A DNA stretch of 64,000 nucleotides from a virus. Each line of letters opens with the position of its first letter. Positions within the stretch are counted from its first letter, which is position 1. The notes under the pieces were generated by a model that was not told where the DNA came from, did not search any database, and saw nothing but the letters and a program-made list of their open reading frames with translations. The position numbers were made by a program, and so were the translations under genes. Below, in pieces: positions 1 through 36,753 of this stretch. Where the stretch lies: positions 1 through 64,000 of the IMG/VR virus record IMGVR_UViG_3300029513_000230. One strand, written 5' to 3'.

Positions 1-3000
1 TTAATATTCTCCCACTGATACTATTTGTCCAATGTGGTTAATTCGGATCTTGACAACACTATTACCAAAAGAAAGTGTTTTATATTGTTTATAAGCAATA
101 TCTTTCAACTCTTTCATATCTTTCACTGTTGTTTCCAAATGATGTCTAAATTTATAATCTCGAACAACATTATTTCCATACATAACTTTTGACATAGTCT
201 GCACCCTAAATAAATTCGGACTAATCATTGCATAATTATCCGGATTCAACAAATCCACCTCCTTCGGATTGAAGCCTGTCTTTTCATTCGGGAACACGAA
301 ATATTCATTCTGCTTCATGCTAAACAAAAATTGCCAACCTTCACTTTTTCTGTAATCCTTATCAATAATAGGAAGTCCTAAATTAGCCCGTGTTACAGCC
401 TCAAAGAAGGGGACAACCACCTCGTCCAGTTCATACATCAGATTACCATCCTCATCAAACGTCACCTGTCCTTTCTTGTCTAAAACAGGTTTACGATAAA
501 TAGCCACATGATGGTTGTTTCCGGTATTTACAAAATCCACAGGGATTTGTTTTCCATTTTCATCCCATATCGGATTCCCATTCTTATCTTTCTTCACGTG
601 TATCGATTGGGCATTATTGATTCCTCGGATGCTAACCCGCTTGATACTTATCCCCTTTTCCTTATTCAGCCATATCGGATTTTCCCAAAAATTAACAAAT
701 GCCTTTTTGGGATCTCCACCGTATTCTTTCAAACGCCGTTCTAAAATAGCACGTACCTTTACATCAACTACTTTATCCACATTCAAAGCAGGATCGACCG
801 GTTTTCGGATAGTATAAATAGTTTCAAATTCAACTGTTTGTACCTTCTCCGGAACTCGTATGGTCTGATACTTATCAGCATAAAGCGGATTCTTTTCCAA
901 TGCATTTTTTCCTGTAAATGCTTTCTTTGGATCATTACCGAATGTTTCCAACCGTTTAAGTAAGGCATTTCGATAAGCCCGTTTACTCACAGTCGCTATT
1001 TTAGCCGCATCAAAAGAAGCATTCACCTTTTCTATTTTTGTCACATATTGTTTGTGACTACCATAAACCGTTTCCAAATGCAACTGACCTCGCGGAGTTT
1101 GCTGTATCTTCGTATTTTCACCCTTTCTCTTTTTTGTTCGATTAACATTGACAGTCACCACCTTGTTCTTAGCTTTAATAGATACCAGCAGTTTTTCCAA
1201 ATGCTGTTTGGCTTCTATCCGGAATTGCTCCAATGGAATAGGAGGCAAAGCTCTTCCTTTGTCAAAATAACGGGTCTTGATACCTATTATATTCGTATGG
1301 TTTCTATTGCCTGAATCTTGTGCCGCATTTTTATTATTGAAATACTGAATAAACGCATCCTTTGTAAAAGCTACCGTCAGCGCATCCATCGCATGATGCC
1401 GATGGTCATTCCTTTTTGTCCAATCCTTTATTCTTTTGATTTTTCTTCCGTCCTTATCTTCGTATGTTTCCACAAAACCCAAGGCTTCATATTTAGGCAG
1501 GTTCAGTTCTTTCATTACATCCACCAATTGCCAGTCTTCACGCAATTGATCTGTAATGGAACCGGTAGTTGCCACTACTCTACGGCAGATTTCGTTCAAC
1601 ATAGCGAGTGCTTTTTTCGCTATATATTGTGTATTTCTCAAATCCCTATCAATGAAACCATCCGGTATATCCTTCTGTTCCATTTTCAATTTCCGAAGTT
1701 TCGCCTTTTTGTCATTGAACAAGCTTTCGCAACGATTTATATATTGTTGCAAGCCTTCTTCTCCATATTTTTCTTTTACAAAATCATAAGCGGTCTTATT
1801 TCCCTTTTCTATATTAATAGCCTTATACTCCAATGTCTTGTTAGATAAAGAATCATCAAAAAGACGGGATTGTGGAATAATATGTTCTATATCTATCTCC
1901 TTACTGAAAATCTTTTCTTTAGGTATATATTGATTGGAATACAATGTTTTATATCCATTATCTTTCAACTCTTCATAAAGTTTGTAACGGATAATATCAT
2001 TGCGGCTCACGTTCATCATACCAAATTCATCTTGCAACAATTTACGGATCTCCTCATGCTCACGGGTACTCTTTGCGATAGCTTTCGTCAGTTCCTCACG
2101 TTCTTTGGCACTCTTCTTTAATTCACGAGCCAATTCCACTCGGATTTCATCAGGTTTTCCATACGTATCAATGATTGTATTGATTACATTCACCATCTGA
2201 CTCAAAATCTTTTCAACCACCGGATTTCGGAGACTGTTTTTAGGAAGAACCTCCAGCTTGCCCTTTAAAACCTTATTTTCTATCTCCTCCTTAGTCAGTG
2301 AAGATTTGGAATGACGATAACCGGCATATTCACAAGCCACATCATACAGATTACCCTCTTTCAAATAGGGTAAAATCCTTTTGATGGCTTTCGCGCTCAA
2401 ACTTCCGTAATCATCTTGAAACGAAAGACTGGCTAGCTCTACAGCATATTCTTTCTCAACTCCGCAAAGTTGCATGATCTTTTCAATCAGTTTGCCGTTA
2501 CCGGTCGACGTATTATCTCCTTCAAAAGAATACAACAGATGCCAAAGTCTGAAATAAGGTTGCATCTCGAGCTCTTTCCCCTCTTTGGTTAAGTCAATGG
2601 TAAACAGATTCGTATTCCAACCTAAATCGGTAAAGATAGTTCTTAGCTGTCCGATTATCTCATCTGCTGGTTTCTTAAAATCCAACGGTTCGTAGCCATA
2701 CTTTTCTATCATTTTGCTATAGGCAGAAAAGAGAGAAAACCCAGTACGATTTCCATCTATTTGTTTGAAGTTCAAATCCAATTCCTGTGGATTTTCAAAT
2801 AAGAGCTTCAACACATCTGCTTTCTTCATGTTTTCTTTTATCGCAAGTTCTCTTGCCAGTATTTCTTTTTCTTCTGGATACAAAGCCCTACTTTCGCTTG
2901 CCGACAAAGCATTTCTTTTCTTCTCTCTTCCCAATACCTTTATGTCATTCAATGTCTGCCATACCTTAAATTCCTGAAACAATGGATGCGAACGAGGTAT

Positions 3001-4275
3001 CACCTTGCATCCTATGACTTTGGTCTGTTTCTTTCCATCCTTTTCTACTACAATCTCCAACCTTTCAAACTCACAGAAACTAATCAAGCCTTTCTGACTT
3101 TTCAGACGTCGTTGGTAAAAGATGATCATATCGCGAATCTCTTTTTTCAATTCAGCTGTCAATTCCTTATGAAATTCTGCCTGCTTTTCCCAAATTCTAT
3201 CAAATTCATCCAAATAATCCTGCCGATAGAATACCATATTGCGCAAACTTGCATGGGGATTCTTGTCTAACTCAGCCATCTGATACTGTCCGACCGTTTG
3301 ATGATTAAAGTATAACACTTTGCTCCTATCACTAATGGCTCCCAAATAACCACTAGACGCATTTATCTGACCATTGATCTCTTGCAAGACTACGGCTATC
3401 TCTTCCAAACCTAATTGTTCAGTAAGAGCTTGCGCACGCCAACGATAATTTTCCTTTTTCAGTTCATACCCCTTAGTCGTCCGTTTAAGACCGACAAGTT
3501 TACATTCTTTTTCTATCGTTTCATTCTTTGCTTCTCTGTCATTCCAGCCAACCACTTCTTCTTTCCAAACAAAATAGTTAGCCAAGATAGCCCATGTCTG
3601 GCTTCTGTTTTTTCCTTTGATTTCTTCTTTGGCGGCATCACAGAAAACATCAGGATGAAATTGCTTTTGAACACTCCATATTCTATCCAACTCTTCTTGC
3701 AAATCAGAACGGTAAAAGTCTGGCAAAACTTTCTTGCCCGATTCAAGTAACTGCGAACAAAGTTGCCCCGGAGTCAAATCCTCCTCATACAGCTTTTTAG
3801 CAATCTCCATTCCATCAATCAAAACTCCATCTTCTTCCTTTTTTACCTTTCGACTACTTTTATATCCACGTTTTTTATTAATCATCAATAAGACACGGGA
3901 TAGTTCCTCTAAAGAAATCTCTTCTTCAGCAGCTTTAGCCCGTAAACGACAGGTTTCAAACGTAGTTCTGTTTCCTTGTTCCGAAAGGATAGTTTCGTCG
4001 GTAATAAAACCCAGCTCTTTCAAAAATTCAACCAACGCATCACGACGTAATTTATATCGCTGCAAATTACGGCGCATACTTCTTTTAAGAGTTCTTTCCG
4101 CATTTGTAGTGATACTTTTCCCTTTTTCAAAGTTCTGCGTTTCATCTACTGTCAAAGGATTTACTCTCACACCTAATCGGATGATTGACGAGACTTCCTC
4201 ATCTGTTTCAGCTTCGTTCACCAACGCCCACCCTATACTATTTGTCCCTAAATCCAAGCCTAAAATCCTTTTCAT
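1..4275 (-). CDS. cas9: Cas9 endonuclease, type II-C-like, complete (1424 aa)
   Basis: N-terminal RuvC-I motif ILGLDLGTNSIGWAL; HNH motif EIDIEHIIPQS...N; RuvC-III HHAMDALTVAF; length typical of Bacteroidetes Cas9. Stop codon sits at the window edge (1-3). Confidence 0.9.
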   Translation of the reverse strand: MKRILGLDLGTNSIGWALVNEAETDEEVSSIIRLGVRVNPLTVDETQNFEKGKSITTNAERTLKRSMRRNLQRYKLRRDALVEFLKELGFITDETILSEQGNRTTFETCRLRAKAAEEEISLEELSRVLLMINKKRGYKSSRKVKKEEDGVLIDGMEIAKKLYEEDLTPGQLCSQLLESGKKVLPDFYRSDLQEELDRIWSVQKQFHPDVFCDAAKEEIKGKNRSQTWAILANYFVWKEEVVGWNDREAKNETIEKECKLVGLKRTTKGYELKKENYRWRAQALTEQLGLEEIAVVLQEINGQINASSGYLGAISDRSKVLYFNHQTVGQYQMAELDKNPHASLRNMVFYRQDYLDEFDRIWEKQAEFHKELTAELKKEIRDMIIFYQRRLKSQKGLISFCEFERLEIVVEKDGKKQTKVIGCKVIPRSHPLFQEFKVWQTLNDIKVLGREKKRNALSASESRALYPEEKEILARELAIKENMKKADVLKLLFENPQELDLNFKQIDGNRTGFSLFSAYSKMIEKYGYEPLDFKKPADEIIGQLRTIFTDLGWNTNLFTIDLTKEGKELEMQPYFRLWHLLYSFEGDNTSTGNGKLIEKIMQLCGVEKEYAVELASLSFQDDYGSLSAKAIKRILPYLKEGNLYDVACEYAGYRHSKSSLTKEEIENKVLKGKLEVLPKNSLRNPVVEKILSQMVNVINTIIDTYGKPDEIRVELARELKKSAKEREELTKAIAKSTREHEEIRKLLQDEFGMMNVSRNDIIRYKLYEELKDNGYKTLYSNQYIPKEKIFSKEIDIEHIIPQSRLFDDSLSNKTLEYKAINIEKGNKTAYDFVKEKYGEEGLQQYINRCESLFNDKKAKLRKLKMEQKDIPDGFIDRDLRNTQYIAKKALAMLNEICRRVVATTGSITDQLREDWQLVDVMKELNLPKYEALGFVETYEDKDGRKIKRIKDWTKRNDHRHHAMDALTVAFTKDAFIQYFNNKNAAQDSGNRNHTNIIGIKTRYFDKGRALPPIPLEQFRIEAKQHLEKLLVSIKAKNKVVTVNVNRTKKRKGENTKIQQTPRGQLHLETVYGSHKQYVTKIEKVNASFDAAKIATVSKRAYRNALLKRLETFGNDPKKAFTGKNALEKNPLYADKYQTIRVPEKVQTVEFETIYTIRKPVDPALNVDKVVDVKVRAILERRLKEYGGDPKKAFVNFWENPIWLNKEKGISIKRVSIRGINNAQSIHVKKDKNGNPIWDENGKQIPVDFVNTGNNHHVAIYRKPVLDKKGQVTFDEDGNLMYELDEVVVPFFEAVTRANLGLPIIDKDYRKSEGWQFLFSMKQNEYFVFPNEKTGFNPKEVDLLNPDNYAMISPNLFRVQTMSKVMYGNNVVRDYKFRHHLETTVKDMKELKDIAYKQYKTLSFGNSVVKIRINHIGQIVSVGEY

Positions 4276-4335
4276 AGTATGTTATCTTTACATTTTCCCA
4301 AATATAAAAATTTTATTTCAGAAACACTTGCACGC

Positions 4336-4445
4336 AAGCATTCCATTTCATATATTTGTCATACTAAAATGAAGCAAATCACAATAAGGATTATTCCGTT
4401 GTGAAAACATTAGGTTCCCTCGCCCTTCTGCGGGGGATTTTTTTA
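4336..4445 (+). ncRNA. putative tracrRNA, divergent from cas9
   Basis: ~45-nt anti-repeat-like segment (4340-4384), then AAUAAGGAUUAUUCCGUU, which parallels the SpCas9 tracrRNA nexus AAUAAGGCUAGUCCGUU. Ends in a 7-bp GC hairpin CCCUCGC/GCGGGGG plus U7 (4419-4445). No overlapping ORF. Confidence 0.55.
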
Positions 4446-4777
4446 TGCTACGAAGTTCTAAAATCAGCCTAAATGCCAGCTTGGTAGAAACCCGTGGAAA
4501 GGACAGTATATCTTCTATGCCACTTGCAGTATATATTAAATGACAAAGTAAGTAGTACTTACTTTTACGGCATATTCCTCAATCCTGTCCATTCCTAAAA
4601 TCACTTGTCACTTTTGGGGTAGTTAAACAACTTTACTTGTCAATAAACTCATGATCCTCCTAGCTTACTTGTCACTCTCTGATAAAGCCTACCAAAAAGC
4701 CTGTCATCAAGAATGGACAATGGATATACCAGAGTGATCCATATTCTCGGCGTACAAATGTAAGGAATCAAAAAGAA

Positions 4778-5626
4778 TCAGGGTCTTTTTCGCCAAAGAT
4801 TTTTCCCCGGCAGTTTGCCTTTATACACCTCCATCGGGCACTCCATTCCGATGCTCATATGAGGTCTTCGGTTGTTATAAAAGTCAATCATACGATTGAT
4901 CTCATTGATCGCCTGTTCTTTATCCCTGTACATTTCCTGCTCGTATATCCATTCGACCTTGAAGATCCCGTTCTGTCTTTCCGCCATGGCGTTGTCTGTC
5001 GGCTCATATCCTTCTGTCATGCTTATCCGTATGTGATGCTCCATGAGGCAGCTGACGTAAGCCTCGCTGGCGTATTGTGACCCCCTGTCCGAGTGGTGTA
5101 TGGTACCGCAAAGGTTGCCGCCTCCGGCGATCCGGATCGCCATGCGCAAGGCCTCTGTCGTATGCGAGGCGCTGAGACTGTCGGATAGGCACCAGCCCAA
5201 TACGGCGTGCGAATAGGCGTCGGTGACAAGATGCAAGTACAACACGTCCCCCAATATCCACACGTACGTGATGTCCGACACCCATATATGGTTGGAATAC
5301 CGCGCGTCTTTTCCCTTGATAAGATTGGGGTACCTTTTATAGACATGATTGGAGTCTGTCGTACGCCTACGTTTGTTGGGATTGAGCTTAAAGCCTTTTG
5401 ATTCATAAACCTTTAAGAACGAGTCTCGCCCGAGGGTCACAGCATGTCCCAAATCCTTTTCCAGTAAATGGAACAGCTTGAAACCTCCGATACGGGGACA
5501 ACAAAGACGATAATAGCCTATCATGTCAGCAAGAAGCTTGACGCGTTGTCTCTCCGATACATCCGCCTTCATGTTCGCGTAATACCATTGGCGTTTCTTT
5601 CCAAACAGCCCGCAAAGGGTAGCCAC
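4778..5626 (-). CDS. IS3-family transposase OrfB (DDE integrase core)
   Basis: Integrase-core motifs WVSDITYV ... HSDRGSQYAS ... E typical of rve/DDE transposases. GTG start, presumably expressed as an OrfAB fusion. Confidence 0.85.
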   Translation of the reverse strand: MATLCGLFGKKRQWYYANMKADVSERQRVKLLADMIGYYRLCCPRIGGFKLFHLLEKDLGHAVTLGRDSFLKVYESKGFKLNPNKRRRTTDSNHVYKRYPNLIKGKDARYSNHIWVSDITYVWILGDVLYLHLVTDAYSHAVLGWCLSDSLSASHTTEALRMAIRIAGGGNLCGTIHHSDRGSQYASEAYVSCLMEHHIRISMTEGYEPTDNAMAERQNGIFKVEWIYEQEMYRDKEQAINEINRMIDFYNNRRPHMSIGMECPMEVYKGKLPGKNLWRKRP

Positions 5627-5658
5627 ACTCTCATGGGGATACTCCTCACGTAACGCCG

Positions 5659-6039
5659 TTACTGTTTGGCACCATCTTTTCTGAATATACTGATGCCTTC
5701 TTCCTCTTCCGCTATCTCTATCATCTTCTCGAAGGCACGGCTACGCATCTTCTCCAGCTCCAAAGAACGACGCAATTCCTCTATGCGCTTTTGAAGGGAC
5801 TCCATATCTGTCAAATCCGATTGCTTGGGAACCATCTGTAACCTCTCTTTTGTTTCTGATGGCAAAGGTAACTGGTCCGATCCCACTGGGTATTCTTTTA
5901 GCCATCTATATATGCAAGGAGGGCTCAAAGAATATTTCTTCGTTATCGCATACTTGCTCATTCCGCTACTGTAATACTCGCGTAACACGGATAATTTAAA
6001 GGGTTCCGTGAACACTCTTTTGGGCTTTCTTTTGATCAT
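5659..6039 (-). CDS. IS3-family transposase OrfA (HTH)
   Basis: 126 aa, HTH-like N-terminus and leucine-zipper-like C-terminus typical of IS3 OrfA; immediately upstream of orfB in the -1 frame. Confidence 0.8.
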   Translation of the reverse strand: MIKRKPKRVFTEPFKLSVLREYYSSGMSKYAITKKYSLSPPCIYRWLKEYPVGSDQLPLPSETKERLQMVPKQSDLTDMESLQKRIEELRRSLELEKMRSRAFEKMIEIAEEEEGISIFRKDGAKQ

Positions 6040-6195
6040 TTCTATACTTTTTAGCCCCTTAAAAGTGTCAAGCTATTTCAGGACAAGACACAGTCGGAAA
6101 AAGAAAGAACCTCTTGTCGATCCCTCCCCCCAAAAAAGTATCTTAAGTACATCGGCTCACGCACCTAAGATACTTTGCCAACGAAGTTATGACAC

Positions 6196-6224
6196 AAAAA
6201 AGGGAGACTCTTTTAGAATCTCCC
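6196..6224 (-). terminator. intrinsic terminator downstream of the tRNA remnant
   Basis: Hairpin GGGAGA-n11-TCTCCC (6202-6224) followed on the minus strand by a T6 run (6196-6201). Confidence 0.5.
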
Positions 6225-6227
6225 TCG

Positions 6228-6270
6228 TGATCGGGCTGGGATTCGAACCCAGGACCCACAGCTTAGAAGT
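6228..6270 (-). tRNA. partial tRNA (3' half from anticodon loop to acceptor end; loop CUUCUAA suggests Arg-TCT); putative prophage att core
   Basis: Minus strand reads ...cttctaa gctgt gggtc CTGGG TTCGAAT CCCAG CCCGATC A. Canonical T-arm and acceptor 3' strand, but the 5' half is replaced by unrelated sequence. Confidence 0.5.
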
Positions 6271-7924: not shown

Positions 7925-8010
7925 CGCCGGGTAGCACGTAGCAGGAAGCGTCCCTCTCTCCTAAAGAGGAGTAGAAATACCCCGTGGGTTCGAATCCCAC
8001 CCCGGTGACC
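7925..8010 (+). tRNA. tRNA-like element (T-arm GTGGG-TTCGAAT-CCCAC, 3' CCA; possible anticodon loop CUCCUAA, i.e. CCT) with non-canonical D region
   Basis: Acceptor pairing CGCCGGG/CCCGGTG; canonical T-loop; encoded CCA. The D-arm and variable region do not fold canonically by hand. Confidence 0.4.
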
Positions 8011-8311
8011 AAAAAAGAGTTCTTTGACTTATTGAGAAAAATCCTTATGGCTATCAAAAGGTATACGAGATATAAACGGGATAAGCGTAAGGTGAAAATA
8101 CAGGAATGGACGATAGTCCTTGCTCCCGATGTAGTTTAATCGGTTCCGGTATTGGATTTATACATATAATTAATAATGTATATATAATAAGTACGATCCC
8201 ATTCGGGTATCCTTGCGGTGGTTGGTAAAGAAGACCGTATCGTACTAAATAATACGACTTTTCCTACGAGTCGTATCTAAGATATAGCAGGAGGTTAATA
8301 CGCCCAAAAGT

Positions 8312-10164: not shown

Positions 10165-11274
10165 ATGGCTGCTATAAAATCTTACAAGGGATTTGACAAA
10201 AATTTAAAATGCCGGGATTTTCAATATGAAATAGGCAAGGAATATGAGATGGATGGAGAGATCAAGGTGTGTAACAGAGGGTTTCACGCTTGCGAAAGCC
10301 CATTTGATGTTTTTGATCACTATACTATGATAGACTCTAGGTTTTGCGAAGTAGAGCAAGACGGGAATATATCCAAGGAGGATAGAGGGACAAAGATTTG
10401 CTCCTCGAAAATAAAAATAAAAGCAGAGTTAAAATTGGCTGACATGATCTATCTTGGAGTCGAATGGCTAAAAGAGATCACATCACCTGAAAAAATAAAA
10501 ACGAGCATAAAGGATAATTCATCCGGCTACGGTGCCAAGATAGGATCATCCGGCTACGGTGCCAAGATAGGATCATCCGGCAACGATGCCAAGATAGGAT
10601 CATCCGGCAACGATGCCAAGATAGGATCATCCGGCAACTATGCCCAGATAGGATCATCCGGCAACGATGCCCAGATAGGATCATCCGGCAACGATGCCCA
10701 GATAGGATCATCCGGCAACTATGCCCAGATAGGATCATCCGGCTACGGTGCCAAGATAGGATCATCCGGCTACGGTGCCAAGATAGGATCATCCGGCTAC
10801 GGTGCCAAGATAGGATCATCCGGCTACGATGCCCAGATAGGATCATCCGGCAACTATGCCCAGATAGGATCATCCGGCGACGGTGCCCAGATAGGATCAT
10901 CCGGCGACGATGCCCAGATAGGATCATCCGGCAACGATGCCCAGATAGGATCATCCGGCAACGATGCCAAGATAGGATCATCCGGCAACTATGCCCAGAT
11001 AGGATCATCCGGCAACTATGCCAAGATAGGATCATCCGGCGACGGTGCCCAGATAGACAGCACAGGCGAAGGCTGTGTCATCATGTGCGCAGGTATTAAC
11101 TCTGTAGCAAAAGCCTCAAAAGGATCATGGATAACATTATCCGAATGGTCTTATTCTGATAAAAAGCAAAGATATATCCCCGTTTGCGTAAAAACGGAAT
11201 TTGTTGATGGGGAGAAGATAAAGGCGGATACATATTACAAATTAGCTGGAGGGGTATTTAAAGAAATACAATAG
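10165..11274 (+). CDS. repeat-containing protein (N-terminal Cys/His-containing domain + 20 x 9-aa IGSSG-x-x-A-x repeats)
   Basis: 369-aa ORF. The central 540 nt consist of a near-perfect 27-bp tandem array. Confidence 0.7.
   Translation: MAAIKSYKGFDKNLKCRDFQYEIGKEYEMDGEIKVCNRGFHACESPFDVFDHYTMIDSRFCEVEQDGNISKEDRGTKICSSKIKIKAELKLADMIYLGVEWLKEITSPEKIKTSIKDNSSGYGAKIGSSGYGAKIGSSGNDAKIGSSGNDAKIGSSGNYAQIGSSGNDAQIGSSGNDAQIGSSGNYAQIGSSGYGAKIGSSGYGAKIGSSGYGAKIGSSGYDAQIGSSGNYAQIGSSGDGAQIGSSGDDAQIGSSGNDAQIGSSGNDAKIGSSGNYAQIGSSGNYAKIGSSGDGAQIDSTGEGCVIMCAGINSVAKASKGSWITLSEWSYSDKKQRYIPVCVKTEFVDGEKIKADTYYKLAGGVFKEIQ
10519..11058 (+). repeat. 27-bp tandem repeat array (~20 copies) inside CDS 10165-11274
   Basis: Unit ggatcatccggc-NAC-GNT-gcc-MAG-ata. 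Variation is confined to three codons (N/Y/D; D/G/Y; K/Q). Confidence 0.85.
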
Positions 11275-26238: not shown

Positions 26239-26436
26239 AAAGAAAAAAATGACATGGAAATACTTGTAAAGTATATGCGTCTAGTCTATCGTGCAAGATA
26301 TCATAACAGGCACATCAAATGCCGTATCCGGGCCATCACCTCATGGAAGTTTATAGGCTCGAACGACAACGATTCTATAAGGCGGTCTATCTCCCGTCTT
26401 ACAGAATCGTTTCTTTTCTTGTTATGTGATCGTGTC

Positions 26437-28802: not shown

Positions 28803-29162
28803 TTATATGGTAGACAGGAACTCTGACAATGAATCCATGTCCGAAAATTCTTTAACCTCACTGTCCTCATGCATATTCCTCGGTTTATTTCTATTACCTT
28901 TTACTATTTTCATCATCAGATCTATAGAGTCGCTCTCATTCTCCATAGAGACCCTCACTTTATCCAAGGCCAAAGCCTCTATTGTATTGCATAACTCATC
29001 CGCAAATGATCGAGACATAAAATATACATCCTTAAAATCTATACGTACACATGGGCTATTCAAATCCTTAGCCCTCATATAGATTTTTTTAGCTTCTGTC
29101 CTAGAACGAAGCTCTCCCCTTATCAATTCTGATATCACAATTGTCTTTTCCATGATCTTCAT
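28803..29162 (-). CDS. STAS-like (DUF4325-type) protein
   Basis: 119 aa. Its size and a 4-bp overlap with an upstream GHKL-ATPase gene match the known DUF4325/HATPase pairing; the domain call itself rests on this context and on recalled family knowledge. Confidence 0.45.
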   Translation of the reverse strand: MKIMEKTIVISELIRGELRSRTEAKKIYMRAKDLNSPCVRIDFKDVYFMSRSFADELCNTIEALALDKVRVSMENESDSIDLMMKIVKGNRNKPRNMHEDSEVKEFSDMDSLSEFLSTI

Positions 29163-29659
29163 TCTAAATATTCATAAAAATTAAACATCCTTTCCTCTTT
29201 ATATGGTATCCTTAATGCCACTATAGTTCCATCCCATTTTATATAATCAGGAAGTCCTATATATGATGTCTCTTCCTCTGACATAAGATGAAACGCTTGC
29301 CCAGACAGCAAAAAATATGTTCCTCCAAGTCCCTTAGACAACATTCTCTTGCAAGTACTTATACCATAACCACGATTCTCGGTATCTGGTAAATTTTTAG
29401 TCGATATACCCTTTCCAGCGCTTTTTAAAGCCTCCACATCGTTAGTTATACCTCCCTTGCCAGACTTAACATAACTACCCAGTATACTTATACCATTATC
29501 CGCTATGCAAATGTCTATATAACTCTTTGACGGATAATACTGAGCAAATATATAACCAAATTCACTCTCTGAATGTTCAGATATATTGTCAATCGTCTCA
29601 GTCAGCATATAAGATAAAGCCTTTCTCAACTCTCCTTCAATATTTAATTGCCTTATCAT
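29159..29659 (-). CDS. GHKL/histidine-kinase-like ATPase (RsbW/SpoIIAB-like)
   Basis: TETIDNISEHS (N-box-like) and NRGYGISTCKRM (G-box-like) motifs; 166 aa. Confidence 0.5.
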   Translation of the reverse strand: MIRQLNIEGELRKALSYMLTETIDNISEHSESEFGYIFAQYYPSKSYIDICIADNGISILGSYVKSGKGGITNDVEALKSAGKGISTKNLPDTENRGYGISTCKRMLSKGLGGTYFLLSGQAFHLMSEEETSYIGLPDYIKWDGTIVALRIPYKEERMFNFYEYLE

Positions 29660-29670
29660 TATATTCTCTG

Positions 29671-30093
29671 CTACAGACAGTATATCGTTTTTATGCTATC
29701 CTTGCTTTTACATCCCGGAAACTTTATTATAGGAATATATTTTTTCATAGAAAAATATTCCATATAATTATGAAAATCACTAACACTGTCAGCTACTACA
29801 CCTCCTTCAAAATGAATAGAGTCCAGATAGCTTTTAACACTGTCCGATATATTCTTGCAAACCACATTCTTACCGCACTTATCTCTATAAAGCATAAGAG
29901 GCAATAAGAAAAATGGAGTCACAAATGCCGTATATTGGAAGTTCCATATGAAATCATCATCATCGGAATTCTCCATTTTCAGGATTATCCTGAATAGATG
30001 ATTGAAGGCTTCTCCTATCCTAATATCATTTACCGCATGTGGCATATATATTTCCATAATGAAACTTTTCGTATACAACAAAGCCTCTGCCAA
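29671..30093 (-). CDS. hypothetical protein
   Basis: ORF immediately upstream of the ATPase gene. Confidence 0.4.
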   Translation of the reverse strand: MAEALLYTKSFIMEIYMPHAVNDIRIGEAFNHLFRIILKMENSDDDDFIWNFQYTAFVTPFFLLPLMLYRDKCGKNVVCKNISDSVKSYLDSIHFEGGVVADSVSDFHNYMEYFSMKKYIPIIKFPGCKSKDSIKTIYCL

Positions 30094-30795: not shown

Positions 30796-31263
30796 TCACC
30801 AAATCCTATAGAACCCGCCTATCCCTACATAGGGAGACAACCCGTGTTTACCGATCCCATAACCGGCTATCGCACCGATTCCCCATCTACGTGGGGTGAT
30901 CGTCTTGGTTATATACTCAGTCTTGCGATAAACCTCGATGTAATCAAGATTAGGCTTGTAACCCGAAATTGAAAGCCGGTAATCATCCGTCTTGTACTCC
31001 TTGCTGGTTATGGGTACCGGAACATATACAGGTTCCTTTACCGTGTCACCGTCCAACGTGATATAAACAGGGAACGGCTCCGGTATCGTCTGCACCAATG
31101 TCTCGTAAACAGGATACGGGATACTGTCATGGATCGTGTCGGTTATTAATACGGTATCGGATTTAGACACGACTTTATCAGTCACATCCCCCCGGATATG
31201 GTAGCCAGCCGTGAAACTGGCTACCAAGCACACTAGTATTAATATTATATGCCACGGCTTCAT
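30796..31263 (-). CDS. membrane-anchored protein (possible spanin/lysis accessory)
   Basis: N-terminal TM helix; sits downstream of the lysis genes. Confidence 0.35.
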   Translation of the reverse strand: MKPWHIILILVCLVASFTAGYHIRGDVTDKVVSKSDTVLITDTIHDSIPYPVYETLVQTIPEPFPVYITLDGDTVKEPVYVPVPITSKEYKTDDYRLSISGYKPNLDYIEVYRKTEYITKTITPRRWGIGAIAGYGIGKHGLSPYVGIGGFYRIW

Positions 31264-31647
31264 CTATCGAACGATCATCCAATCCGTAGCTAGCATATCC
31301 GTTTGAGATGCTAACCAGCCATTTACGATAGTATCATCAGCGGCTTTCATACACAAATAAGCCGTGAACTTGATCTTGTCCGTTTCCGAGTCACCATATT
31401 TATTAGCAACCCATTTCTTTACTGCATCAGGTAAGGATTTAACCTTATTCACGACCATGTCTGTAGACAAATAGTCTTCAGGACGCTGAAAGATAAACAT
31501 GCCTTTTCCATTCCATCCTTCACGACAAACCAACTCCCCTTTTTTGATAGCCTCTAAAGCTTCTCCAAATGTCATGTTTTTAGTTTTCATTTTATTTACG
31601 CTTACCTCTACAGCATTAGGTCTTGTTATTGTTAAAGTAAATTCCAC
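31264..31647 (-). CDS. DUF2829-family protein (Tad2-like)
   Basis: ...[29 protein letters not shown]...[21 protein letters not shown] matches the DUF2829 pattern (GW and W..sq.DllAeDW). Confidence 0.55.
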
Positions 31648-32042
31648 CCAGCTATAACGTCCGGCATTTCAGCCTCCCTACCATTCTCCACCTTGCTCAT
31701 CCCGCCCACGATCCGGATCATCTGCTCACGATCGTTGATGTTGATAGGATCATCAGCCGGGATACCAGCATAATCTGATACGGCCTTAATGTAAGCGTCC
31801 GTATCGTTCTCGTTTTCCGGTGCCCAGCGACCTATCATCTTGCGGATCGTGTCCAGCTTATAGTTCCGGTAATAGTTAGACAGGATCTTGAAGATCGCCC
31901 TGTAACCGTATGCCATCGATTTAAATTGCTTAAACGACTTGTCCTTGCTTGGGCGTATCTCACCTTGGAACAAGTCTCCGTTGATCCGGATGTTTCCCGG
32001 GTTGTTGTTCCGATACCCACGAGGTAAATTATTTTTCCCCAT
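31632..32042 (-). CDS. putative endolysin/peptidoglycan hydrolase
   Basis: [12 protein letters not shown] motif family seen in Bacteroidales phage lysins; adjacent to a holin. Confidence 0.45.
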
Positions 32043-32045
32043 ATT

Positions 32046-32522
32046 TTACTCTCCTTTCTTCTTTTTATTCATGGCATTGGATAAAGCGTTTGTCAAAGCG
32101 TCCTCCAAAACCTTTTGCGTTACAACCTTACCGATCATGTCGGCTGTCTTACTCGCCTGCCTCCTTTGTTTGGCGTCAGCCTTCTCCCAGATAGACCTAA
32201 CCTCCGTTATCAAGATAAATACGGTCACTATCGAGGATACGACCGGGACATTGGTCAAGAAAGGCAGATGGATAAATTCCCAGAACCGACACACGTAGCA
32301 AACCGAGTCTATCCCGCACGCTATACATACGCTACCAGCGTAAAGTATGAACTTACTGACCGTCCTACGCATGCCATACGAATTACGCTCCTCGCCCCTC
32401 AATTTAGCCTTGTAATAACCCGAGGCGAAATCCCACCCCATCGCCACCATAACGATGAACATCTCAAACACGACTACAGTCAGTAGCTCCCTCATACTGC
32501 AAATCATTTTAAAAAATTCCAT
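32046..32522 (-). CDS. holin-like membrane protein
   Basis: Three TM segments plus a charged C-terminal tail; immediately upstream of the lysin. Confidence 0.5.
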   Translation of the reverse strand: MEFFKMICSMRELLTVVVFEMFIVMVAMGWDFASGYYKAKLRGEERNSYGMRRTVSKFILYAGSVCIACGIDSVCYVCRFWEFIHLPFLTNVPVVSSIVTVFILITEVRSIWEKADAKQRRQASKTADMIGKVVTQKVLEDALTNALSNAMNKKKKGE

Positions 32523-32547: not shown

Positions 32548-32940
32548 TTATAAAACCACTATGCTCTCCTCCTCTCTCGCCGCCTCCCACTCGGCGAAAT
32601 CGCTATCCACACGGTCTTTCAACGCCTTCCTCTCGTTAAGGAACGTCTTATAAGACTCCACGTATGACAAGTCCAGTATGCCTAGCTGGGCGGCGTTGTA
32701 GTCGTTCAGCTTCTTTTGCTCCACGTCCTTGTCCCATAGGGCGTTGATACAGGCCTCCAATATCTTGTTGGCCGTCAACGTGGGCCATACCCTGACCTCG
32801 TTGTAACTATAGGAGATCACGGGGGCCATATCGTCACCCATCTCCCTTGTCTCCTCTCTAACGTCCCACCGGTACAGGTAGGAACCGTCACCGTCCCGCT
32901 CTATTCTAGGCGGCATTGTGTCGCTCCATGATCGCTTCAT
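32548..32940 (-). CDS. hypothetical acidic protein
   Basis: ORF; start overlaps the RT stop. Confidence 0.4.
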   Translation of the reverse strand: MKRSWSDTMPPRIERDGDGSYLYRWDVREETREMGDDMAPVISYSYNEVRVWPTLTANKILEACINALWDKDVEQKKLNDYNAAQLGILDLSYVESYKTFLNERKALKDRVDSDFAEWEAAREEESIVVL

Positions 32941-34000
32941 AAAACTCTGGTTTTAAAATTTTCTTAGCTAAATGCTTGCTATCGCTATCATATATCCAGC
33001 CCAGCCAACCGGCTAGACCTGCCTTGTATTCCGTTAAGGATATATTCGGGACTTTATTCAATCTAGCCGCCGCACGACATAGATTTTGCTTAGTCCTCTT
33101 CCTTATCCGTATATGCTCCTTGTAAAATACGAAACCCACGAAATCTACACCACGGCCGCTTTTATCCGATCTTCTCTCAGCGATCTTAAATATCTGGTAA
33201 TTCCCTTTCAGCTCCAACTTCAACACGGCCAATCTATCGATAAGCCACGGAAGTAATACGTTTCTCAAGAAACACTTATCATGATGGAAAAAAGTCATGT
33301 CATCCGCGTATCTGATATAATGCCTTATATCTATAATCTCCTTTATCTCGTGATCCAGATAGGCGAGATAAAGATTCGCAAGATATTGGCTAAGATAGTT
33401 CCCGATCGGAACGCCGGGAGCGGAATCGATGATCTCATCCAACAACATAAGCAAGCGATCGTCCTTGATCTTCTTCCGAGCGATGCCTTTTAACACCTCA
33501 TGGTCTATTGACGGATAGAATTTGCGGATATCAACCTTGAGGCAATAGACGGATTCACGATCGGACAAAGCCCGTCTTGTCCTCTTATACGCCTCCGTTA
33601 TTCCTCTTCCCTTGATACATGATGTCGTATCAGCCGTGAACACGGAAACCCATATAGGTTCCATGACGTTCATTATGGCATGATGCAATATCCTGTCCGG
33701 ATAATAAGGGAGCTTGAAGATGATCCTTTCTTTTGGCTCATAGATGGTATCAGTCCGGTACTTGGAAGTCTTGAACGTGCCATCCAGCAGAGACTTTAGC
33801 AAACGGCTTAGATTACCTTCTTTGTCCTTGTCAAACAACCTTATGCCGTATGAATCCTTCTTTCCCCTTCGGGCTTTCATGTCCGCAAGTATCAAGTTGT
33901 CCATATTCGCTATCTTATCAAATAAATTCCCTGTTCTCTTCATTTTATTGTCATTAATTTGCTTTTTATCATAGGGAGTCTTCGGTTTCCCTACCAACAC
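32906..34000 (-). CDS. DGR reverse transcriptase
   Basis: RT motifs: N-terminal RTGNLFDKIANMDNLILADMKARRGKK; motif 4 IGNYLSQYLANLYL (DGR-specific SQ); catalytic YIRYADDMTFF; thumb DFVGFVF. Confidence 0.85.
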   Translation of the reverse strand: MLVGKPKTPYDKKQINDNKMKRTGNLFDKIANMDNLILADMKARRGKKDSYGIRLFDKDKEGNLSRLLKSLLDGTFKTSKYRTDTIYEPKERIIFKLPYYPDRILHHAIMNVMEPIWVSVFTADTTSCIKGRGITEAYKRTRRALSDRESVYCLKVDIRKFYPSIDHEVLKGIARKKIKDDRLLMLLDEIIDSAPGVPIGNYLSQYLANLYLAYLDHEIKEIIDIRHYIRYADDMTFFHHDKCFLRNVLLPWLIDRLAVLKLELKGNYQIFKIAERRSDKSGRGVDFVGFVFYKEHIRIRKRTKQNLCRAAARLNKVPNISLTEYKAGLAGWLGWIYDSDSKHLAKKILKPEFYEAIMERHNAA

Positions 34001-34080: not shown

Positions 34081-34198
34081 TAAAAGTATAGGCGTGAACC
34101 GATGTTACGATTCGCATCGGAAGGCGCATTATTCGTATTCACGTTAGCGAGGCCTGCATTCGACCTGTTGTCCGCGTTACCGCCAACCAGCACCACCT
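34081..34198 (-). repeat. DGR template repeat (TR)
   Basis: 118-bp noncoding copy of 34643-34760. 19 mismatches, all at + strand T (= A on the transcribed strand). Confidence 0.8.
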
Positions 34199-34614: not shown

Positions 34615-36753
34615 CTACGCCGACGTTTTACGATATTCGGGGAAAAAGCAAAGGCGTGAACCGACGTCACGATCCGCAGCGGAAGGCGCAGAACCCGTAT
34701 ACACGTCAGCGAGGCCCGCATACGACCCGGTGTCCGCGCGACCGCCAACCAGCACCACCTGCATGCGGTTAGCCGATGTGTAGGTGTAGTAGTAGTCGCA
34801 CCAGTAGGTAGAACTACTACCGCCGATCTCCGTAGCTACGATATCACCATCCTCACCTAGGAGCATCTTCTTGGCATAACCATTGGTACGGCAGATGTTG
34901 CCTTTCTTGTTATAGCCTGTGTAAGATGTATCGCTGAAGTTTGACGGGTCATCGGTAGTCCATAATATGGATAATCCCGCATCGCCCGTGGTGACCTGTA
35001 TATTGGCCCCGTCGGTGTATTTCCAGATATGGCCGAACGGATTCTCTATGCCACGATACCTGTTAGCCATCAACGTGGCGTGAGTACCGCCGGAAGCGTT
35101 CTTCACGACATATGCCTTCTCTCCCGAGCCGTTCCCGAACTCGTTGGTATAGCCGCATGGGATAAGTGGATTGATCTTGTTGAAGTTAGTCCAATCCGTC
35201 ATTTGCGTTGGTCCCGGACCTAGGCCACCTTGGGCGAAACCGTTTGCGTCCTTCTGGGCGTTGAAAGGCTTCTGGCTGTCCAGCGTGGCGTACTCGACGG
35301 CGAATAGCCAGAACAGGGTCTTGTGGGCGTTGTAGGTGTACATCTCCCAACCGCTGCCACGTTTCCTTGCGGCTTGCCGGAATTGGTCTCGGGTGAGGTT
35401 GGTGACGGGACGGCCTAGCAAGGAACGGTAGGTTCCGTCCCATTCGGCGGTGTTGTCGCCGCCTCTTGTATCAGTAGAGTTTGTTTTATCCGACATCAAT
35501 AACCCTAAAGATCTAAGCATTTGCGCCTCACTTGAGCCTATATAGAATTTGCTTATATGCTTGTATCCGGGCAATGGAATCGAAGATAACATCATTTTAA
35601 ATTTAGTCCCAGTTATGTATATTCTATACCAATGATCGGGAATCTCTACCATTGACGCATAATCTTTAGACGCAAATGTCATCTTCCATGCCGTTGGTTC
35701 ATGATAATAATATACTCCTCCATTATTATCTAACACGACTCCTCTCATCCCGCTCTGCACCGGCAACTCCCTATGCAGTTGCATATTTCCAACACGCTTC
35801 CCGTCCGGGCTTGACGATGCCATGTCCCACTCTACACCATAGGCGTACCGCTCCTCGATGTCGGGGATGTCCTCCCAAGCGGGGGTCCACTCGGTGGAGA
35901 TGTCGCCGTACTCGAGCTTGATCTTGTGGATGGTGGAAGTTGATGTGCCAGTTTTAGGAGAACTAAATACAACCATATGTGTATTATCAGCTACTGCATC
36001 TCCGATATTAGTAATCCATTTAAAAGCCTTACTGGCCTTCCCATTCACAAAGTCAGTCTTACTGAACTGAACCATAGAACCTACTGCACCAGTAGAGTTA
36101 TATATAGTGAACATTTCCTTATCATCACCCAATTCTCCAAAAATAGTCAATGTTACTTGTGTTCCTTTAGATATCGGTTCAGTTAGCCAATAATCAGCGA
36201 TATTGTAATTCGAATTACTCACCTCCTTCCCTGATCCCAGCAACAGGTTCCTGCCGTACACGGGCAGCTTGCGGTACTTGCCATCAGCCATCAGAGACTT
36301 ATCCTTGTCCCCCTTGGTCTCCAGCGTTATCGACACGTCCGGATCGTCATTTTTTGCCTTGTCCGGCGTTATGGTTATCTGACCGTTAGACGGGGTGGAT
36401 GTGACAACGGGCTTTAACTTATCAACGTCCGTCCTTAGACCGGTGACCAGATTCCGGATATCCGTATCGTCGTAATGGTCACGCAAGTTAGGCGTGGTTA
36501 TGGTTCCCTCAGCGGAGGTTATCTCCAAGACGTATTCCGTATCCGTGTTAGTCTTTATCCTCACCTTGATGTCTTGCATCACCAATGGAAGCTCGGCGTA
36601 CGTATGGATACCGTCCGAGAACTTCATGTTTAAATTGCCGTTCGCCAACCGCTCGAAAAGCCATAGCGACGGCGGGTATATGGTGCTGTCAGCCGTCCAC
36701 TCGGCGGTGGACTGCTCTATCTGTTGGTATACGTAAGCTCCTCTCTTGCTCAT
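34615..36753 (-). CDS. DGR target protein, tail-fibre-like with C-terminal CLec-type variable region
   Basis: 712 aa; C-terminus ...RMQVVLVGGRADTGSYAGLADVYTGSAPSAADRDVGSRLCF carries the VR; lies in the tail-fibre module. Confidence 0.7.
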   Translation of the reverse strand: MSKRGAYVYQQIEQSTAEWTADSTIYPPSLWLFERLANGNLNMKFSDGIHTYAELPLVMQDIKVRIKTNTDTEYVLEITSAEGTITTPNLRDHYDDTDIRNLVTGLRTDVDKLKPVVTSTPSNGQITITPDKAKNDDPDVSITLETKGDKDKSLMADGKYRKLPVYGRNLLLGSGKEVSNSNYNIADYWLTEPISKGTQVTLTIFGELGDDKEMFTIYNSTGAVGSMVQFSKTDFVNGKASKAFKWITNIGDAVADNTHMVVFSSPKTGTSTSTIHKIKLEYGDISTEWTPAWEDIPDIEERYAYGVEWDMASSSPDGKRVGNMQLHRELPVQSGMRGVVLDNNGGVYYYHEPTAWKMTFASKDYASMVEIPDHWYRIYITGTKFKMMLSSIPLPGYKHISKFYIGSSEAQMLRSLGLLMSDKTNSTDTRGGDNTAEWDGTYRSLLGRPVTNLTRDQFRQAARKRGSGWEMYTYNAHKTLFWLFAVEYATLDSQKPFNAQKDANGFAQGGLGPGPTQMTDWTNFNKINPLIPCGYTNEFGNGSGEKAYVVKNASGGTHATLMANRYRGIENPFGHIWKYTDGANIQVTTGDAGLSILWTTDDPSNFSDTSYTGYNKKGNICRTNGYAKKMLLGEDGDIVATEIGGSSSTYWCDYYYTYTSANRMQVVLVGGRADTGSYAGLADVYTGSAPSAADRDVGSRLCFFPEYRKTSA
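34643..34760 (-). repeat. DGR variable repeat (VR) at 3' end of target gene
   Basis: Matches TR apart from 19 A-position substitutions; ends 26 nt before the stop codon. Confidence 0.8.

What the first reader, a model, noticed from the sequence alone, without database searches (positions are those of the whole stretch)
31264..31647. DUF2829/Tad2-like gene embedded in the lysis cassette
The 127-aa product has the DUF2829 hallmarks ([22 protein letters not shown] ... [16 protein letters not shown]). This is the family of the anti-Thoeris protein Tad2, which sequesters gcADPR signals. It sits between the endolysin-like gene and a membrane protein, downstream of the holin. It also carries a ~26-aa N-terminal extension not seen in minimal Tad2 proteins.
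Basis: partly seen in the sequence, partly recalled or inferred. Interest (0 to 1): 0.55.

Follow-up and report, generated by a model that had tools for sequence, protein, structure and literature searches.

The report
HgmTad2/AcrIIA7-type immune-signal sponge gene
This is a close relative of an already characterised phage protein (HgmTad2, also called AcrIIA7) that soaks up bacterial immune alarm molecules; its supposed N-terminal extension is really a conserved non-coding RNA-hairpin leader that marks a swappable gene slot.

Summary
The ORF is real, on the minus strand, and hits Pfam Tad2-like (PF11195, E 4e-24). All 12 published gcADPR contacts and all 9 cyclic-dinucleotide (cGG/cGAMP) contacts are identical.

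The "26-aa N-terminal extension" is an ORF-calling artefact. The true start is the ATG at 31590, giving 108 aa ([10 protein letters not shown]...). Four observations support this:
- The closest divergent relatives have four in-frame stops upstream of that ATG.
- The minimal 103-aa relatives carry the same upstream DNA as non-coding leader.
- In Bacteroides phage BF1-TP2 a different gene replaces exactly 31264-31583.
- The leader hairpin keeps a conserved spacing to the ATG.

That leader is a conserved hairpin found 8-9 nt upstream of the start codons of many unrelated small phage genes. It shows strong covariation and matches no Rfam family.

The host is Parabacteroides distasonis. The prophage is integrated in tRNA-Arg, directly beside IS3-cas9. 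That CRISPR system has type II-C gene content, and AcrIIA7 reportedly does not bind II-C tracrRNA.

Verdict: a new member of a known kind. The hairpin leader is the more novel by-product.

The parts
31264..31590 (-). Tad2 coding sequence as re-annotated here. ATG at 31590-31588, TAG stop at 31266-31264, 108 aa ([13 protein letters not shown]...MIVR). It is an HgmTad2/AcrIIA7-type sponge with the long insertion domain.
   Evidence: The 108-aa form hits PF11195 at E=2.3e-24. It matches PDB 8KBI/9KZR at E~1e-53. All 21 ligand-contact residues are identical. The cargo-swap boundaries against BF1-TP2 are 31584 and 31263.
31591..31631 (-). Non-coding leader of 41 nt between the endolysin stop (TAA, 31634-31632) and the Tad2 ATG.
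   Evidence: L013, L016 and BF1-TP2 carry the same leader with 1 extra nt, which gives four in-frame stops. The homologous leader upstream of the 103-aa genes in L009-L011 and L015 is interrupted by stops.
31598..31622 (-). Conserved leader hairpin motif GACCT-A-ATGCT-GTAGAGGTA-AGCGT. 5' flank ACCT at 31621-31618; stem arms at 31616-31612 and 31602-31598; 9-nt loop at 31611-31603; then a 7-nt spacer to the ATG.
   Evidence: It is the only significant copy in the window (nhmmer E=2e-5; covariance model 35.5 bits, E=1.4e-4). Family-wide covariation is shown.
31632..32042 (-). Endolysin-like peptidoglycan hydrolase gene, 136 aa, immediately upstream.
   Evidence: phrog_873 'endolysin' at E=8e-47. 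The BF1-TP2 orthologue is annotated as endolysin.
32046..32522 (-). Holin gene, 158 aa.
   Evidence: PF05105 Phage_holin_4_1 at E=4e-7.
30796..31263 (-). DUF6808 protein with an N-terminal hydrophobic segment. Its ATG directly abuts the Tad2 TAG stop (TAGATG).
   Evidence: PF20647 at E=2e-27. The junction was read from the sequence.

Best explanation
The gene encodes a 108-aa HgmTad2-type 'sponge'. By homology it assembles into a tetramer with two kinds of pocket. One kind binds the Thoeris signals 1''-3' and 1''-2' gcADPR. The other kind is formed by the ~40-residue insertion domain and binds cGG, 3'3'-cGAMP and related CBASS cyclic dinucleotides. By sequestering these second messengers it would keep Thoeris (ThsA) and CBASS (for example TIR/TM-STING) effectors from being activated during replication of this Parabacteroides distasonis prophage.

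Translation starts at ATG 31590, not at the GTG. The gene is an exchangeable cargo in a fixed slot of the lysis module, between the endolysin and DUF6808 genes. It sits behind a conserved hairpin leader that many accessory genes of Bacteroidales phages share.

Shown here: family membership, near-orthology, conservation of every published ligand contact, the start codon, and the cassette boundaries.
Inferred: tetramerisation, ligand binding, and the in-vivo targets.
For: Family and orthology:
- Pfam PF11195 at E=3.7e-24.
- phmmer against the PDB gives 9KZR AcrIIA7 at 3.6e-54, 8KBI HgmTad2 at 1.3e-53, SptTad2 at 2e-33 and SPO1 Tad2 at 1e-15. The alignment to HgmTad2 is ungapped over 103 residues.
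- Identity to HgmTad2 is 77%. All 12 gcADPR contacts are identical (W21, N22, G23, M76, A78, T82, V84, W87, L88, S90, T92, D93). All 9 CDN contacts are identical (R31, P32, D34, L36, K46, S47, F70, T71, N85). The residue lists come from bioRxiv 10.1101/2023.11.15.567273.
- These residues are 95-100% conserved in the 120 closest homologues.
- The Foldseek top 23 PDB hits are all Tad2/AcrIIA7 structures.

Start codon and cassette:
- Leader frameshift and in-frame stops in relatives.
- Precise ORF-for-ORF replacement in phage BF1-TP2.
- The motif-to-ATG spacing rule.
- pLDDT below 50 for residues 1-18.

Recurrent placement:
- The trio endolysin-like/Tad2/DUF6808 recurs in L001-L004.
- Minimal Tad2 genes sit beside holin and amidase genes in L009-L011.
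Against:
- The AlphaFold model is of low confidence (mean pLDDT 57.7, TM 0.4-0.6 to Tad2 structures), so the fold rests on sequence identity to crystal structures.
- It is unknown whether this P. distasonis strain has Thoeris or a cGG/cGAMP CBASS; neither is in the window.
- The gene lies inside a late-looking lysis operon with no recognisable promoter of its own. That is an odd position for a protein that should act before immune signalling peaks.
- The Tad2 family is functionally plastic: His-ADPR, N7-cADPR and cUMP binders exist (bioRxiv 10.1101/2025.08.24.671296).
Confidence: 0.8

Rival explanations
1. Its physiological role is anti-CRISPR (AcrIIA7). The headless tetramer would bind tracrRNA in its basic groove and prevent Cas9 RNP assembly, protecting the prophage from the Cas9 system that sits about 27 kb away.
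For: - It is 77-80% identical to AcrIIA7.
- It is 'headless', the form reported to be active (PMC13133391).
- An intact Cas9 lies at 1..4275 in the same window.
- A spacer from a sister strain's array matches this prophage at 26/30 positions, 23 of them contiguous, at 26376-26405. It also matches BF1-TP2 and related phage loci.
Against: - The resident locus is cas9-cas1-cas2 plus an array with 47-nt repeats and no csn2, which is type II-C gene content. Lee & Park report that AcrIIA7 did not bind type II-C tracrRNA.
- One of the five groove residues needed for RNA binding is charge-reversed (pdK66 -> E43), and R101 -> K. K58 and K66 equivalents vary among close homologues while the sponge pockets do not.
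- Li et al. could not reproduce any Acr activity.
- The adjacency to cas9 is explained by integration into the neighbouring tRNA-Arg gene.
Confidence: 0.1
2. The full 127-aa GTG-initiated protein is made, and its 19-24 extra residues are a degenerate 'head domain' that modulates activity, as the 48-aa head does in Phocaeicola AcrIIA7.
For: - The frame is open from the GTG in the window and in L001-L004.
- BLASTP extends weakly into the head domain of the 150-aa relatives (TITRPNAVE vs TIYRQGAME).
- 99 of the 120 closest homologues have a 48-49-aa head.
Against: - The same DNA is out of frame, with four stops, in L013, L016 and BF1-TP2. It is non-coding upstream of the 103-aa genes.
- It belongs to a hairpin leader shared with unrelated genes.
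- The GTG overlaps the endolysin gene and lacks the A-rich context of the two ATGs.
- pLDDT is 36-43 over residues 1-20.
Confidence: 0.04
3. The protein has shifted ligand specificity (for example His-ADPR, N7-cADPR or cUMP) or an unrelated lysis-linked role, so it is not a gcADPR/cGG sponge.
For: - Tad2 homologues inhibit types I, II and IV Thoeris, CBASS and Pycsar in various combinations.
- The gene is embedded among lysis genes.
Against: - Every published gcADPR and CDN contact of HgmTad2 is retained.
- The slot holds an unrelated cargo gene in BF1-TP2, so the cargo is not an obligatory lysis component.
- Close relatives also occur in replication or early regions.
Confidence: 0.06

Closest known systems
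HgmTad2 = AcrIIA7 from a human gut metagenome (PDB 8KBI-8KBM, 8WJC). Described in Li et al., bioRxiv 10.1101/2023.11.15.567273.
   Same: - 77% identity over an ungapped 102-103 residues.
- Same length of insertion domain.
- All gcADPR and cGG/cGAMP contact residues identical.
- Headless architecture.
- Bacteroidales phage origin.
   Different: - A 5-residue N-terminal MKTKN, as in SPO1 Tad2.
- 23 substitutions, including K19E and R54K in the groove reported to bind tracrRNA.
- Located inside a lysis module of a P. distasonis prophage.
pdAcrIIA7 from Phocaeicola dorei (PDB 9KZR; Lee & Park 2026, PMC13133391)
   Same: The core and extended domains are highly similar (E=3.6e-54).
   Different: - pdAcrIIA7 has a 48-aa two-helix head domain that blocks sgRNA binding; the window protein has none.
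- The 150-aa relatives sit next to integrases and primases, not lysis genes.
SPO1 Tad2 (Gp34.65; PDB 8SME-8SMG, 8WJE), the founding anti-Thoeris Tad2
   Same: - Same Pfam family.
- Same N-terminal MKTK(x)M(S/T)FGEALE.
- Same C-terminal W..SQTD.LA.DW gcADPR-pocket motif.
   Different: - SPO1 Tad2 lacks the long insertion and did not bind cyclic dinucleotides.
- The match is distant (E~1e-15).
Promoter-early stem-loop (PeSL) cassettes of T4-type phages and N4 hairpin promoters. These are recalled from my own knowledge, as analogues for the leader only.
   Same: A short conserved stem-loop that precedes many small accessory genes and coincides with gene-swap boundaries.
   Different: - No sequence similarity.
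- The present element has a fixed 8-9-nt distance to the start codon.
- Its function is untested.

Membership tests
Tad2 / DUF2829 (Pfam PF11195) | Significant match to the family profile, above the curated threshold | tested here: met
   E=3.7e-24 and 85.5 bits against a cut-off of 25, full profile 1-73. The 108-aa form also matches.
Tad2 / DUF2829 (Pfam PF11195) | Homology to experimentally solved Tad2 proteins | tested here: met
   HgmTad2 at 1.3e-53, SptTad2 at 2e-33, SPO1 Tad2 at 1e-15, ModTad2 at 4e-15.
Tad2 / DUF2829 (Pfam PF11195) | Conserved gcADPR pocket (W21, N22, G23, M76, A78, T82, V84, W87, L88, S90, T92, D93 of HgmTad2) | tested here: met
   12 of 12 identical.
Tad2 / DUF2829 (Pfam PF11195) | Tad2 fold | tested here: inconclusive
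   The AF2 model has mean pLDDT 57.7. All 23 significant Foldseek PDB hits are Tad2/AcrIIA7, but TM is only 0.4-0.6. 77% identity to crystal structures makes the fold near-certain.
Tad2 / DUF2829 (Pfam PF11195) | Homotetramer that sequesters gcADPR and rescues phage from Thoeris | not testable with these tools
   Requires biochemistry and phage assays.
HgmTad2-type long-insertion subfamily (dual Thoeris/CBASS sponge) | Insertion of about 40 residues between beta2 and beta5 that forms the CDN pocket | tested here: met
   Ungapped alignment through HgmTad2 residues 32-72. The Pfam match spans 102 residues for a 73-position profile.
HgmTad2-type long-insertion subfamily (dual Thoeris/CBASS sponge) | CDN contacts R31, P32, D34, L36, K46, S47, F70, T71, N85 | tested here: met
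   9 of 9 identical.
AcrIIA7 (tracrRNA-hijacking anti-CRISPR) | Basic groove residues K58, K66, K71, K93, R101 (pdAcrIIA7 numbering) | tested here: not met
   The query has K35, E43, K48, K70, K78. K66 is charge-reversed and R101 is changed to K. K58 and K66 equivalents vary in homologues.
AcrIIA7 (tracrRNA-hijacking anti-CRISPR) | Absence of the inhibitory head domain | tested here: met
   The start is at ATG 31590, only 5 residues before the core.
AcrIIA7 (tracrRNA-hijacking anti-CRISPR) | A type II-A tracrRNA target in the host | tested here: not met
   The P. distasonis locus is cas9-cas1-cas2-array without csn2. AcrIIA7 reportedly does not bind II-C tracrRNA. The lysogen's own array could not be retrieved.
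Any Rfam RNA family (for the leader hairpin) | Covariance-model match | tested here: not met
   There was no match over the leader in the window at E<=1, nor in six loci with consensus copies at E<=0.1.

The most novel reading that the evidence does not exclude
The stretch mistaken for an N-terminal extension belongs to an undescribed class of structured cis-element. Its form is a 5-6-bp hairpin with a conserved loop (G-UAYAGGU-NA) and a conserved 5' ACCU flank, placed 8-9 nt upstream of the start codon of many unrelated small accessory genes in Bacteroidales phages, crAss-like ones included. It could work in several ways: as a translation-initiation or operator element in these Shine-Dalgarno-poor systems, as a hairpin promoter, or as the shared homology that lets cargo genes such as Tad2 be swapped precisely at the ATG.
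Probability: 0.45. Interest if true: 0.6.

Novelty: new member of a known kind. Interest (0 to 1): 0.33.

Why it matters
The gene itself adds little. HgmTad2/AcrIIA7 relatives are abundant in gut Bacteroidales phages and already have structures and ligand data.

Three points are worth keeping:
1. A corrected gene model (108 aa, headless). This matters because the head domain is reported to switch AcrIIA7 activities.
2. A natural setting where an AcrIIA7 orthologue sits in a prophage next to an intact Cas9 system with type II-C gene content. This is a clean test bed for the disputed Acr-versus-sponge question.
3. A conserved hairpin leader that defines exchangeable accessory-gene cassettes. It may reveal how gut phages express or shuffle anti-defence genes.

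Tried and rejected
- AlphaFold2 with a 21-sequence alignment gave a poor model (pLDDT 57.7). I used it only qualitatively. I did not run a second prediction because 77% identity to crystal structures is stronger evidence.
- Single-sequence RNA folding of five leader copies was not better than shuffles (z from +0.26 to -1.0). The hairpin claim therefore rests on covariation.
- Rfam searches found nothing for the leader.
- The sigma-70 promoter and terminator scan was uninformative and below shuffle expectation. It does not model Bacteroides promoters.
- A termination-reinitiation idea, with a fixed distance from the upstream stop codon, was rejected: the distances range from 0 to 267 nt.
- A pseudoknot (5' AACCU with loop AGGUU) cannot be tested because those bases are invariant, and the connecting loops (0, 4 and 1-2 nt) look sterically unfavourable. 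I consider an alternative helix more plausible.
- Full-text searches for the motif sequence and for crAss-like leader elements returned nothing relevant.
- Attempts to recover the lysogen's own CRISPR array failed. The repressor protein look-up found only a 1.7-kb contig, and the junction pattern was absent from genome contigs.
- PADLOC found no defence-system match for the Tad2 neighbours, apart from a weak DrmA/HATPase-like hit.
- A search for papers on Thoeris or CBASS in Parabacteroides gave nothing usable.

Full report
OBSERVATION

The ORF at 31264..31647 exists, on the minus strand. It is 127 aa when opened at a GTG. It hits Pfam PF11195 'Tad2-like' at E=3.7e-24 over residues 25-126, and also PHROG families 1048 and 872.

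On the minus strand the gene order is:
- holin (PF05105, 32046..32522)
- endolysin-like (phrog_873, 31632..32042)
- this gene
- DUF6808 protein (30796..31263)

. The Tad2 stop codon directly abuts the DUF6808 ATG, reading TAGATG. The observation therefore holds, except for the strand and the N-terminal extension.

WHAT THE PROTEIN IS

A search of PDB sequences gives a far closer identification than 'DUF2829':
- 9KZR 'AcrIIA7', E=3.6e-54
- 8KBI 'Inhibitor of type II CRISPR-Cas system' (apo-HgmTad2), E=1.3e-53
- SptTad2, E=2e-33
- SPO1 Tad2, E=1e-15
- ModTad2, E=4e-15

. The alignment to HgmTad2 is ungapped over 103 residues and 77% identical. The query therefore has the same ~40-residue insertion domain that distinguishes HgmTad2 from the short SPO1 Tad2.

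Li et al. (bioRxiv 10.1101/2023.11.15.567273) showed that an HgmTad2 tetramer binds two gcADPR molecules and, in a separate pocket built by the insertion, two cyclic dinucleotides (cGG, 3'3'-cGAMP, cUG, 3'2'-cGAMP). They listed the contact residues. All 12 gcADPR contacts and all 9 dinucleotide contacts are identical in the query. They are 95-100% conserved across the 120 closest database homologues.

An AlphaFold2 model from a shallow alignment was poor (mean pLDDT 57.7). Even so, its 23 significant Foldseek hits in the PDB are exclusively Tad2/AcrIIA7 structures.

THE 'N-TERMINAL EXTENSION' IS NOT PROTEIN

The GTG at 31647 overlaps the endolysin gene by 16 nt. In-frame ATGs lie at codon 20 (31590) and codon 25 (31575). 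Four independent lines place the start at 31590.

1. Loci L013, L014 and L016 encode a protein 92-97% identical to the query. They have the same upstream DNA with one extra nucleotide in the spacer, which puts four stop codons between the GTG and that ATG. The open frame in the window is thus the by-product of a 1-nt difference.

2. The 103-aa relatives in L009-L011 and L015 carry a recognisably homologous leader that is non-coding and contains several in-frame stops.

3. In the cultured Bacteroides fragilis phage BF1-TP2 (PQ571263), the endolysin, the leader and the DUF6808 gene are conserved, but an unrelated 132-aa ORF starts at the very same ATG. Homology to the window runs from 32033 to 31584 and resumes at 31263. 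The replaced segment is therefore exactly the Tad2 coding body.

4. The leader motif has a conserved 8-9-nt distance to an ATG in dozens of other genes. In the window the distance to the ATG at 31590 is 7 nt.

In addition, residues 1-18 have pLDDT below 50. The product is therefore 108 aa, [13 protein letters not shown]..., an N-terminus much like that of SPO1 Tad2 (MKTKMSFGEALE).

This correction matters. Lee & Park (PMC13133391) report that a 48-aa N-terminal 'head domain' in Phocaeicola AcrIIA7 changes its activity. 99 of the 120 closest homologues have such a head. The window protein does not.

THE LEADER

The 41-nt intergenic leader contains the motif GACCT-A-ATGCT-GTAGAGGTA-AGCGT at 31622-31598. 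It is the only significant copy in the window.

Copies in related and unrelated loci:
- In L009-L011 and L015, copies precede both Tad2 and the next gene.
- An exact-pattern scan of the viral collection found 58 stretches. My rough estimate of the chance expectation is about 2. All are in sense orientation and upstream of at least 13 unrelated small-ORF families. These include crAss-like phage proteins, a holin-like protein and many proteins of unknown function.

Evidence for the hairpin:
- On a covariance-model alignment of 52 distinct copies the stem is 92.6% paired. Compensatory changes occur at 4 of 6 pairs, and no shuffle out of 500 reaches the observed covariation.
It gave 98 distinct contexts. 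Of these, 54 form 6/6 pairs and 25 form 5/6 pairs, against 1.7 and 14.6 expected from a shuffled null.
- That scan shows many different compensating stems: TATGGT/ACCGTA, TGCGGT/ACCGCA, TGTGGT/ACCACA, TTCTGT/ACAGAA, TCCTGT/ACAGGG, TGCATT/AATGCA and others.

The hairpin is therefore real. The loop and the 5' ACCU flank are conserved in sequence, and no Rfam family matches. Its function is unknown. Candidates are a translation-initiation or operator element, a hairpin promoter, or shared homology for cassette exchange. Single-sequence thermodynamics is unremarkable.

GENOMIC SETTING

The 1424-aa ORF at 1..4275 is a Cas9 (RuvC_III at 1e-53, HNH_4 at 1.6e-17). It is identical to the Cas9 of Parabacteroides distasonis.

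In prophage-free sister genomes the locus reads BamA - tRNA-Arg(TCT) - IS3 - cas9 - cas1 - cas2 - array, with 47-nt repeats. Window positions 1-6269 are 99.98% identical to those genomes, and the homology ends inside the tRNA gene. The prophage is therefore integrated in tRNA-Arg. It runs from 6270 past the window end and includes a CI-like repressor, early genes, DGR, tail, capsid and portal.

One of 53 sister-strain spacers matches the prophage at 26376-26405 (26 of 30 positions, 23 contiguous). The same spacer matches BF1-TP2 and related phage loci. This Cas9 system does therefore meet this phage group.

SPONGE OR ANTI-CRISPR?

The literature disagrees. Li et al. found no Acr activity. Lee & Park report that headless AcrIIA7 sequesters type II-A tracrRNA when added before RNP assembly, and that it did not bind type II-C tracrRNA.

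Four points bear on this case:
- The resident system has type II-C gene content, with no csn2.
- One of the five groove residues is reversed (K66 -> E43) and one is conservatively changed (R101 -> K78).
- These groove positions drift among close homologues, while the sponge pockets are invariant.
- The closeness to cas9 follows from the tRNA attachment site.

I therefore rate the sponge function as the conserved, selected activity (about 0.8). I rate a physiological Acr role here as unlikely (about 0.1). It cannot be excluded, because the lysogen's own array could not be retrieved.

PLACEMENT IN THE LYSIS MODULE

The trio endolysin-like/Tad2/DUF6808 recurs in L001-L004. Minimal Tad2 genes sit just upstream of a holin-amidase pair in L009-L011. 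The head-bearing 150-aa versions lie among integrase and primase genes instead, and L015 has its copy in a replication module.

Because BF1-TP2 holds another cargo in the same slot, Tad2 is a moron-like passenger and not a lysis component. How it is expressed early enough to intercept signalling is unresolved.

VERDICT

The N-terminal extension is an artefact. The by-products (the hairpin leader, the exact cassette swap, and a natural AcrIIA7-orthologue/Cas9 pairing) carry most of the remaining interest.

Noticed in passing
window 31591-31631 (-); also L009, L015, L096-L249: A conserved leader hairpin (consensus AACCTTAYGGTGTATAGGTNAACCGT, then 8-9 nt, then ATG) sits upstream of many unrelated small phage genes. 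It shows strong covariation and has no Rfam match. L161 has four copies within 900 nt, each before a small ORF.
   Followed up: yes
window 1-4275 (-), 4778-6039 (-), 6227-6269: An intact Cas9 identical to that of Parabacteroides distasonis, followed by an IS3-family transposase pair (orfA and orfB) and the 3' 43 nt of a tRNA-Arg(TCT) gene. That fragment marks the prophage junction at 6269/6270. cas1, cas2 and the array lie just outside the window.
   Followed up: yes
window 26376-26405: A protospacer matched 26/30 (23 contiguous) by spacer 14 of the CRISPR array of a sister P. distasonis genome (L155). The same spacer matches BF1-TP2, L013 and L002.
   Followed up: partly
window 32906-34000 (-), 34082-34198, 34644-34760: A diversity-generating retroelement. 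It comprises a reverse transcriptase, a template repeat and a variable repeat at the 3' end of the 712-aa tail-fibre-like ORF (34615..36753). All 18 TR/VR differences are at TR adenines.
   Followed up: yes
L154 (Bacteroides phage BF1-TP2, PQ571263) 5867-6265: The same endolysin/leader/DUF6808 slot holds a different cargo, gp46. Its C-terminal half is crAss001_48-related (PF21825). Its N-terminal half matches the N-terminal half of phrog_872, and the C-terminal half of phrog_872 is the Tad2 domain. The depositors labelled gp46 DUF2829, although it lacks the Tad2 domain.
   Followed up: partly
window 29159-29659 (-) and 29671-30093 (-): Two adjacent ORFs (166 and 140 aa; weak HATPase_c hit) correspond to a single 295-aa 'ATP-binding protein' next to a DUF4325/STAS-like gene in BF1-TP2. 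The window copy may be split by a mutation.
   Followed up: no
window 10519-11056, within ORF 10165-11274 (+): About twenty tandem copies of a 27-nt unit encode a GSSG(N/Y)xA(K/Q)I repeat in a DUF7666 protein with a weak collagen-like match.
   Followed up: no
window 7925-8011 (+): A tRNA-Arg(CCT) gene inside the prophage early region.
   Followed up: no
L107 6981-7112 (+) and 4431-4485 (+): A Hatchet ribozyme (98 bits, E=1e-19) and a sub-threshold twister-P1 match in a 130-kb gut phage contig that also carries the leader hairpin.
   Followed up: no
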